Part shown: one piece after another, positions 31,384 through 32,785 of the stretch
How the letters are laid out: each line of letters starts with the position of its first letter
How positions within the stretch are numbered: the first letter of the stretch is position 1
NCBI GenBank assembly: GCA_964016885.1
Contig: OZ024741.1
Span: forward strand, 374,294,001 to 374,358,000
DNA: 64,000 bases
Direction of reading: 5' to 3'
DNA from: Eledone cirrhosa
Taxonomy: Eukaryota
Position numbers and translations under genes: made by a program
The notes under the pieces: generated by a model
The model's database searches: none
Seen by the model: only the letters and a program-made list of their open reading frames with translations
What the model was told of the DNA's origin: nothing

Positions 31384-31464
31384 GTATGTGTGTGTATGTG
31401 TATGTGTATATATATGTATATTTGTGTGTGTATATGTATGTATATGTGGATAAACCAGGTTTTT

Positions 31465-31523
31465 TTCATTCTGAAGATTGAAGGAAACATTTTTTTGCTT
31501 TTAAGAAACCACTGGTGAATGGA
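31465..31523 (+). ncRNA. Type I hammerhead copy, probably inactive (GUG at the cleavage triplet)
   Basis: TTCATT-CTGAAGA-TTGAAGG...CTTTTAA-GAAA-CCACTGG-TG-AATGGA. Confidence 0.6.
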
Positions 31524-31642
31524 ATAATTGCCTTATGTTGCTTTATTACTTTACTACTATATATACGTTTATGTAAGGTTCATTTGAATTATCTTAGACA
31601 TGTATGTGTGTGTGTATGTGTATGCATATGTGTATATGTACG

Positions 31643-31731
<89 letters not shown>

Positions 31732-31929
31732 ATATATGTGTGTATGTATGTGCGTGTGTGTGTATATATATATGTATGTGTGTGTGTGTGTGTGTGTGTT
31801 TGTGTTTGTATTTGGTTGTGCGTGTTTATGATATATACGTATTTGCATGTGTATAATTGTTTAGCTATGTATGTATATGTGTGTGTAGGTATACATATAT
31901 GTGTGTGTGTGTGTGCGTTTATATTTTTG

Positions 31930-31964
<35 letters not shown>

Positions 31965-32282
31965 ATATAATTACATATACATGTGTGTGTGTATATATTG
32001 TATACGTGTGCGTGTTTGTGTATGTATGTGTATGTATGTGTTTATGTATTTGTATATGTATATTTATGTGTGAGAGTGTGTGTATGTGTTTACTATTTCG
32101 TACGTATGTATACGTGCATTTATGTGTATTACTTACCACGCGTGTCTGTCCCGTTAGCTGCCTCATGTAACGGTGTCAAACATTTTTTAATAATATATAT
32201 ATATTTTTTTTTCTTATATTTATTTGCGTGTGTGAATATGTAGAGGAGTGCATTTATGTATGTGTATGTATGTGTATGTGTG

Positions 32283-32359
<77 letters not shown>

Positions 32360-32630
32360 ATGTATGAATGTATGTATGTGTATATGTGTATATATGTGTA
32401 TGTGTATGTAAGTGTACGTTTTATATATATGTGTATATGTATATATGTATGCGTACATATATATATGTATATATGTATGTGTGTGTAAGTATGCTTTTGA
32501 GTTTTTGTGTGTGTTTGCATGTGTAGTTTTATTTTATTTTTCCTTTCCTTCTCCCTTCTCCAGCCTCACTTTCATATAGATTGCATTTTTGTTTTTTAAA
32601 ATCCAAATTCAATAAACAAACCAGGATTTT

Positions 32631-32688
32631 TTCATTCTGAGGATTGAAAGCTAAACCTTTTGCTTTTAAGAAACCACTGGTAAATGGA
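32631..32688 (+). ncRNA. Type I hammerhead ribozyme, apparently intact
   Basis: Stem I TTCATT/AATGGA, CTGAGGA (32637-32643), 8-bp stem II TTGAAAGC/GCTTTTAA, GAAA (32670-32673), quasi-palindromic stem III ACCA-C-TGGT. Predicted cleavage after GUA at 32682. Confidence 0.7.
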
Positions 32689-32785
32689 ATAATTGCCTTA
32701 TGTTGTTTATTACATAATAATAATATATATATAATATATATATATATAATATATATATATATATATAGAATATATATATATATAT

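What the first reader, a model, noticed from the sequence alone, without database searches (positions are those of the whole stretch)
31452..32713. Hammerhead-bearing direct repeats enclosing ~1.1 kb of microsatellite (retrozyme-like unit)
Seen: two ~95-bp direct repeats (31452-31549, 32618-32713), 1166 bp apart, each fold into a type I hammerhead. The second has an 8-bp stem II and a GUA site; the first has GUG. The interior is almost only TA/TG simple repeat with no coding remnant. Known: Penelope pseudo-LTRs and animal retrozymes carry type I hammerheads, and short palindromic stem III forms cleave as dimers. Inference: this may be a non-autonomous ribozyme-flanked element whose cargo is microsatellite. 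It could release a ~1165-nt (possibly circular) RNA and spread TA/TG repeats.
Basis: partly seen in the sequence, partly recalled or inferred. Interest (0 to 1): 0.75.

Follow-up and report, generated by a model that had tools for sequence, protein, structure and literature searches.

The report
Penelope retrotransposon tail with spare hammerhead
The two ribozyme-like repeats and the microsatellite between them are the tail of a protein-coding jumping gene of a known class, not a separate element; the first repeat is likely a piece of the element's own end that landed in its own TA repeats, and it carries a change predicted to slow its own cutting.

Summary
The repeats are real (31452-31549, 32618-32713; 89% identical) and both read as type I hammerheads. 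They are not a stand-alone retrozyme. Elsewhere in the genome the same block follows a reverse transcriptase + GIY-YIG ORF (23 of 30 loci picked by repeat 1 alone). This window keeps that ORF's last 31 codons at 30986-31081. The element is a 5'-truncated Hydra-clade Penelope-like retrotransposon ending in (TA)n. Repeat 2 is its normal pseudo-LTR hammerhead (9,487 exact motif hits). Repeat 1 is absent from older subfamilies; one basal copy shows it still ending like a fresh insertion, so it is likely a self-insertion into the element's own microsatellite 3'UTR. Most copies of it carry G at the cut site (764 hits); one lineage has A with broken stems (81). The junction expected from a 1165-nt circle has 0 hits. 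The microsatellite is real cargo and attracts further insertions. Whether repeat 1 acts as an uncuttable dimer partner for repeat 2 is open (p about 0.08). No RNA data were available. The scan found Hydra-type hammerhead ends in this genome before, on other DNA; my look-ups returned no note on this duplicate.

The parts
30985..32722 (+). 5'-truncated copy of a Hydra-clade Penelope-like retrotransposon (ORF end, 3'UTR, pseudo-LTR hammerhead, short 3' end)
   Evidence: Colinear with full-length copies L062 and L066; 5' junction mapped
30986..31081 (+). Last 31 codons and stop of the RT + GIY-YIG ORF (includes the CxH motif)
   Evidence: tblastn of the 715-residue frame of L078, E 2e-15, and translation
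31082..31451 (+). First part of the 3'UTR: pyrimidine-rich stretch, C run, TA/TG tract
   Evidence: Recurs upstream of R1 in copies on many contigs
31452..31549 (+). R1: internal duplicate hammerhead; core 31471-31477, GAAA 31505-31508, G17 at 31517 (predicted poorly cleavable); likely a fixed self-insertion of the element's own 3' end
31550..32617 (+). Microsatellite-rich 3'UTR carried as cargo, with conserved linkers (31550-31600, 32125-32200, 32525-32617)
   Evidence: Same order of linkers in dispersed copies; R1-to-R2 spacing 730-3726 bp in 43 copies
32618..32713 (+). R2: pseudo-LTR hammerhead; core 32637-32643, GAAA 32670-32673, predicted cut after A32682
   Evidence: Also precedes the ORF in L062, L066, L078, L080; shared changes mostly keep the pairs
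32723..32971 (.). (TA)n target tract at the element's 3' end
   Evidence: 125 of 137 scorable R2 ends run into (TA)n
29805..30989 (-). 5'-truncated copy of a second Hydra-type family, joined head-to-head to this copy (context, not part of the unit)

Best explanation
The stretch is the 3'UTR of a 5'-truncated copy of a protein-coding Hydra-clade Penelope-like retrotransposon that ends in (TA)n, in which R2 is the pseudo-LTR hammerhead and R1 is likely a short copy of the element's own end that inserted into its own UTR and is predicted to cut poorly. Shown: the full unit is about 3.8-4.0 kb, in the order R2, short leader, one ORF, 3'UTR of about 1.2-2.4 kb that is roughly half TA/TG repeat, R2. 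Copies end at two fixed points after R2, both followed by (TA)n. The oldest sampled subfamily has no R1. Inferred from known Penelope biology: the encoded GIY-YIG nuclease cuts a TA tract and the RT copies RNA that is still uncut at R2, usually stopping early. Inferred: because the UTR holds the element's own target, a 98-bp truncated end landed in it, replaced about 0.8 kb of older UTR, and was copied onward. Inferred: a cut at R1 would part the ORF from the 3' end, so lineages persisted in which R1 is disarmed, by G17 (most copies) or by broken stems (lineage C). R1 is most likely a tolerated passenger; a role as dimer partner is possible but not shown.
For: ORF end directly upstream of R1 on the same strand in 23 of 30 loci chosen only by R1's 3' end (five pairs are arms of one insertion), and R2 or its flank downstream in 25 of 30. 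The ORF-end probe precedes R1 in 20 of 20 ten-kb stretches, which were picked from loci already showing that probe; one open 715-residue frame in L078; R2 also precedes the ORF in 4 of 20. Hydra motifs RWK, DKT, CxCx5C, CxxC, CxH present (against section 11 of PMC8557442). Low-confidence model (pLDDT 59.6) matches RTs and telomerase best. Of 154 R2 ends, 72 stop short and 53 after a tail of about 78 nt, both into (TA)n; 6 continue into the ORF, 6 are other, 17 cut by the locus edge; contigs of two public runs show the same two ends. No R1 in the three old-subfamily UTRs read in full (L151, L154, L155). L161 lies with them on the ORF tree and has an R1 that still ends like a genomic insertion, with A17. 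N17: 86 of 94 sampled R1 have G; 151 of 158 R2 have A. Genome-wide exact hits: 764 G17-type, 81 lineage-C type, 9,487 R2 type. Between the young lineages A, B and C, R2 differs by 0.6-0.8%, R1 by 9-17%, ORF third positions by 5-8%. G17 slows minimal hammerheads at least 300-fold and stabilised ones 8- to 100-fold (PMC3884650).
Against: The self-insertion origin rests on one intermediate copy and a 290-column tree with rough support and a midpoint root. Against a mere passenger: in G17 copies 0 of 8 shared changes break R1's catalytic half, against 11 of 28 rare ones (Fisher p=0.076), and 576 G17 copies keep the exact 5' core against 739 G17 cut-site hits. Lineage C has a cleavable GUA in R1 and still spread, so avoiding an internal cut may not be strongly selected. 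The R1 sample is biased: 30 loci were chosen by likeness to this R1 and 20 stretches by G17. The near-invariance of R2 could partly reflect exchange of 3' ends between subfamilies. No cleavage or RNA was observed. Pfam gave no RT hit for the ORF; 1 of 20 aligned relatives hit GIY-YIG.
Confidence: 0.8

Rival explanations
1. Same element, but R1 has been co-opted: in an R1/R2 heterodimer R1's intact core would cut R2's GUA while R1's own GUG resists, so a single-unit RNA would be cut only at the pseudo-LTR.
For: The palindromic stem III gives -8.2 kcal/mol as an R1/R2 duplex against +0.4 as a monomer hairpin. 68 of 79 G17 copies keep the whole catalytic half, against 0 of 6 lineage-C copies. One sublineage's deletion stops just before stem I. 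G17 persists from L180 through the youngest lineages. Metazoan Penelope hammerheads cut only as dimers or trimers, weakly (PMC4209133).
Against: The shared-versus-rare test is not significant (p=0.076) and three of the 8 shared changes may be one event. R1 as a whole diverges as fast as the UTR in young lineages. Most copies of the family belong to lineages or fragments without R1. Hammerhead cutting was dispensable for insertion in vitro for the Anolis element (PMC11167929).
Confidence: 0.2
2. R1 arose by internal duplication (template switch or unequal recombination) or is kept alike by conversion from R2, not by a new insertion into a TA tract.
For: Position N7 changes from T to G in both R1 and R2 in the same subfamilies, which suggests some exchange. 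About 0.8 kb of older UTR is missing where R1 sits.
Against: In L161 R1 ends exactly at the short genomic 3' end followed by TATA and lacks R2's upstream flank. Other elements' ends land in the same UTR tracts.
Confidence: 0.12
3. One reading: a non-autonomous retrozyme-like unit bounded by R1 and R2 that releases a 1165-nt linear or circular RNA and is copied on its own.
For: Same-strand pairs about 1.1-1.5 kb apart are common. G17 slows cutting but does not abolish it, so some release of such an RNA is not excluded.
Against: 0 hits for the circle junction against 358 and 670 exact hits for patterns at its two sides. 0 of 94 R1 copies and 0 of 158 R2 copies start at the cut site. No tandem arrays of the unit in the loci read. 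R1 and R2 differ by 11% with fixed, different flanks.
Confidence: 0.03

Closest known systems
Hydra clade of C-terminal EN+ Penelope-like elements, incl. Hydra-1_Obim (Craig et al. 2021, PMC8557442; passages, section 11, supplement hits and supplement part 2 read)
   Same: Single ORF with RWK, DKT, CxCx5C, CxxC and CxH motifs; one sense-strand type I hammerhead near the 3' end with palindromic stem III (ACCA-N-UGGU in Hydra-1_Obim too); (TA)n target; tandem and inverted copies. About 60 of 97 residues identical to Hydra-1_Obim in an RT stretch, counted by eye.
   Different: Unit 3.8-4.0 kb against 3,045 bp or less for the 27 listed families; 3'UTR about half microsatellite; a second, internal hammerhead with G17. 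The 25 Hydra families in the hammerhead table each show one sense motif, with N17 = A, C or U.
Poseidon element PAc of Anolis (Frangieh et al. 2024, PMC11167929; parts 1-2 of 4 read)
   Same: Two fixed 3' ends downstream of the hammerhead, with and without a tail; uncut RNA as template; AT-rich target.
   Different: Different clade; its hammerhead overlaps the start codon, whereas here the ATG is about 225 nt after R2; no internal duplicate described in the parts read.
Metazoan non-LTR retrozymes (Cervera and de la Pena 2020, PMC7229834, passages read; Li et al. 2026, 10.64898/2026.07.22.740005, part 1 of 5 read, supplements not seen)
   Same: Type I hammerheads that may act as dimers; link to Penelope pseudo-LTRs.
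   Different: Retrozymes are non-coding tandem repeats of 150-450 bp with a hammerhead in each unit; this is part of a coding element, is not a tandem array, and its two motifs are unequal paralogs.
L1/Alu as sources of microsatellites (Grandi and An 2013, PMC3812793; abstract only)
   Same: Retrotransposons give birth to and carry microsatellites.
   Different: Here the carried repeat is the element's own insertion target and fills about half of a 1.2-2.4 kb UTR.

Membership tests
Penelope-like elements (EN+) | Single ORF with RT and C-terminal GIY-YIG | tested here: met
   715-residue frame in L078 with GSYD/YRDD and VYEA...YVGMT; fold search of a low-confidence model gives RTs and TERT; Pfam blank for this ORF, GIY-YIG in 1 of 20 relatives
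Penelope-like elements (EN+) | Partial tandems forming pseudo-LTRs, inverted 5'-truncated copies, optional tail | tested here: met
   R2 on both sides of the ORF in 4 of 20 stretches; many back-to-back pairs; two 3' ends
Penelope-like elements (EN+) | Type I hammerhead in the pseudo-LTR | tested here: met
   R2; 9 of 10 shared changes keep the fold against 32 of 64 rare ones, p=0.036; all pair-keeping changes are one-sided
Hydra clade | RWK, DKT, CxCx5C linker, CxxC and CxH motifs | tested here: met
   Residues 41, 118, 560, 663, 694; criteria
Hydra clade | Insertion into (TA)n | tested here: met
   125 of 137 scorable ends
Hydra clade | Generally shorter than 3 kb | tested here: not met
   Period 3,802-3,969 bp in three tandems; a tendency in the paper, not a diagnostic; the excess is UTR
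Hydra clade | Placement in an RT tree with published families | not tested
   Only a by-eye comparison with Hydra-1_Obim
Non-LTR retrozymes | Non-coding and non-autonomous | tested here: not met
   Attached to the ORF
Non-LTR retrozymes | Short tandem monomers, each with an equivalent hammerhead | tested here: not met
   Two unequal paralogs 1.17 kb apart; circle junction 0 hits
Non-LTR retrozymes | Expressed as self-cleaved linear and circular RNA | not testable with these tools
   No RNA holder listed
Active hammerhead ribozyme | NUH cut site and measurable self-cleavage | not testable with these tools
   R2 has GUA, R1 has GUG; activity needs an assay

The most novel reading that the evidence does not exclude
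A retrotransposon that carries its own target site caught a copy of its own hammerhead and turned it into a built-in, uncuttable catalytic partner: the G17 copy supplies the second half of the dimer so that single-unit RNA is cut only at the pseudo-LTR. This would be a natural asymmetric hammerhead heterodimer and would show that hammerhead cutting is selected in Penelope elements.
Probability: 0.2. Interest if true: 0.7.

Novelty: new variant of a known kind. Interest (0 to 1): 0.4.

Why it matters
What Penelope hammerheads do is an open question: they need a dimer partner or protein help, and cutting was dispensable for insertion in vitro. This family offers a natural series (no R1; fresh R1 with A17; R1 with G17; R1 with A17 and broken stems) beside a nearly invariant R2, so one set of cleavage assays can ask whether internal cutting is avoided and whether a second motif acts in cis. 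It also shows a loop in which a TA-targeting element copies TA tracts that then take further insertions, including its own end. The amount is small: roughly 850 R1-bearing copies times about 0.7-1.0 kb of repeat is under 1 Mb of a 3.0-Gb genome (my estimate; shorter fragments add more). I found no description of an internal G17 duplicate in seven paper searches; subscription papers and bioRxiv supplements were not seen.

Tried and rejected
Rfam scan: only microsatellite-driven miRNA hits, no hammerhead. First idea that the ORF lies antisense to the hammerheads: wrong; the minus-strand GIY-YIG end belongs to a second family. Idea that G17 is universal in R1: rejected by lineage C and L161. Idea that a whole lineage has a dead R1 core: the G12 change in L150 is private to one insertion. 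Circle junction: 0 hits. The reverse hybrid (interior deleted): 1 hit, which proved to be the intermediate L161, not a deletion. RNA runs: no RNA holder listed; the two runs laid are contigs of unrecorded kind, so they say nothing on expression or cutting. PDB sequence search and Pfam gave nothing useful for the ORF; the protein atlas gave no result. One row of the alignment had wrong coordinates; that alignment was not used. PMC3064770 (passages) and PMC6431247 (passages) added nothing. No covariance model was built; no two-sided compensatory change was seen among shared alleles.

Full report
Observation. The two repeats are present at 31452-31549 (R1) and 32618-32713 (R2), 89% identical, E 3e-31 within the window. 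Each has the order of a type I hammerhead: 7-bp stem I, CUGANGA, stem II of 7 or 8 bp, GAAA, a palindromic stem III and the cut triplet, GUG in R1 and GUA in R2. Rfam found no hammerhead in 28000-36000 at E<=1, and the monomer fold is rare in the computed ensemble (about 0.01 for R2, about 0 for R1). The interior is 62% strict TA/TG repeat (658 of 1068 bases); the rest includes unique linkers.

What the repeats belong to. The window lies in a 3.0-Gb genome, likely a cephalopod (inference from size and from likeness to Hydra-1_Obim). R1 with its flank had 1,413 first-look candidates. In the copies the order is fixed: upstream sequence, R1, linker, mid linker, R2 flank, R2. Ten-kb stretches showed that the upstream sequence is the end of one long ORF on the same strand; L078 holds an open 715-residue frame, and R2 also stands before the ORF in 4 of 20 stretches, with periods of 3,802-3,969 bp in three of them. 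Those 20 were picked from loci already showing the upstream probe, so I also used 30 loci chosen only by R1's 3' end: 23 have the ORF end directly upstream, 2 have only the UTR start, 5 are truncated inside R1, and 25 have R2 or its flank downstream. The window itself keeps the last 31 codons at 30986-31081. It is a 5'-truncated copy.

Family. The ORF has RWK, DKT, CxCx5C, CxxC and CxH, the marks of the Hydra clade in section 11 of PMC8557442. By eye it shares about 60 of 97 RT residues with Hydra-1_Obim, so it is a different family. A low-confidence model matches RTs and telomerase best. Pfam did not recognise the RT. Of 154 R2 ends, 72 stop just after R2 and 53 after a tail, both in (TA)n; 6 run into the ORF, 6 are other and 17 are cut by the locus edge. 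Contigs of two public runs show the same two ends. This fits the two reverse-transcription starts and the uncut template reported for the Anolis element (PMC11167929).

Test of the retrozyme reading. A circle from the R1 cut to the R2 cut would leave copies with R2's upstream flank joined through a hammerhead to R1's downstream flank. That pattern has 0 hits, while patterns at its two sides have 358 and 670. None of 94 R1 or 158 R2 copies starts at a cut site, and ends lie beyond the R2 cut. R1 and R2 are fixed paralogs with different flanks. No RNA run was listed, so a low level of released RNA is not excluded.

Origin of R1. Three UTRs of the oldest sampled subfamily have no R1. A search for R1's upstream flank with R2's downstream end gave one hit, L161. 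There R1 has A17 and ends like a genomic insertion followed by TATA, then resumes in UTR sequence shared with the R1-less subfamily. On a 53-row tree of the ORF end, L161 lies with the old group, and G17 lineages branch in steps after it; support is rough and the root is the midpoint. I infer that a 98-bp truncated end inserted into a TA tract of the element's own UTR and was inherited. The same tracts hold other nested insertions in all 8 long UTRs read.

State of R1. G17 is present in 86 of 94 sampled R1 copies and A17 in 151 of 158 R2 copies; the R1 sample is enriched for G17 by how 50 loci were chosen. Genome-wide there are 764 exact G17-type hits, 81 of lineage C (A17, stems I and II broken, palindrome changed) and 9,487 of R2 type. 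Of 20 stretches fetched at G17 hits, 17 held an internal R1 and 3 a terminal copy. G17 slows minimal hammerheads at least 300-fold and tertiary-stabilised ones 8- to 100-fold (PMC3884650, abstract and Discussion). Between young lineages R2 differs by 0.6-0.8%, R1 by 9-17% and ORF third positions by 5-8%; against older single copies R1 differs by 7-10%, about as much as R2. In R2, 9 of 10 shared changes keep the fold against 32 of 64 rare ones (p=0.036). In G17 R1, 0 of 8 shared changes break the catalytic half against 11 of 28 rare ones (p=0.076). So R2 looks constrained; for R1 the sign is suggestive only.

Mechanism. Shown: architecture, two ends, TA target, carried microsatellite, the series of R1 states. 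From established Penelope biology: nuclease cut, target-primed reverse transcription, early stops. Inferred: self-insertion, then persistence of lineages whose R1 cuts poorly, since a cut there would part the ORF from the 3' end. Open: in a dimer each core cuts the partner's site (stem III duplex -8.2 kcal/mol against +0.4 as a hairpin; dimers were needed in PMC4209133), so R1 could cut R2 while resisting itself. I give that 0.2.

Comparison and novelty. It is a new family of a known clade. It differs from the published Hydra families by its length, its microsatellite UTR and a second hammerhead; the 25 families in the hammerhead table each have one sense motif and none has G17. Seven paper searches gave no description of such a duplicate; subscription journals and bioRxiv supplements were not seen. 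Earlier notes of this scan report Hydra-type hammerhead ends and two-armed insertions elsewhere in this genome; look-ups by sequence, place and words returned none on this duplicate. Verdict: real, mostly explained by a known class, with one testable twist. Interest 0.4.

Noticed in passing
window 29805-30989 (-): A young second Hydra-type family (42% amino-acid identity to this one, 1,082 first-look candidates) is joined head-to-head to this copy through 2-5 bases of microhomology; both outer ends lie in (TA)n. It may be one two-armed insertion primed by RNAs of two different families. Its end has a hammerhead-like motif with a CAGAAGA core, read by eye.
   Followed up: partly
window about 40675-40760 (-): A third type I hammerhead of another family with longer stems (6, 6 and 7 bp in the scan).
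   Followed up: no
window 36290-37286: A 498-nt arm palindrome, 99% complementary, whose right arm ends at (TA)n; similar sequence lies beside this family's end in L023.
   Followed up: no
window 35966-36107 (-): A short fragment of this family's own ORF (residues 100-147) near a TA tract.
   Followed up: partly
window 32986-34370 (+): A 5'-truncated LINE RT of RTE type (label recalled from its motifs) starts right after the TA tract; related copies at 26174-26722 and 37844-39210.
   Followed up: no
window 28545-28634 and 29062-29143: A direct repeat of about 85 bp with a CUGAUGA on the minus strand but no GAAA after it, between TA tracts.
   Followed up: no
L043, L068, L078, L150, L168, L172, L178, L181 (3'UTRs): All 8 long UTRs read carry nested insertions of other elements at or beside their TA/TG tracts, including a tandem repeat in L068 and an inverted Penelope-type piece in L168.
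   Followed up: partly
L151, L154, L155 (3'UTRs): The old subfamily's UTR holds what looks like a captured half-hammerhead of another family that is also seen free in flanks (L002, L020, L026).
   Followed up: no
R1 positions 32 and 65: Two early fixed changes in R1, including G17, are A-to-G; RNA editing is a possible source (lead from e1-8671701), untested.
   Followed up: no
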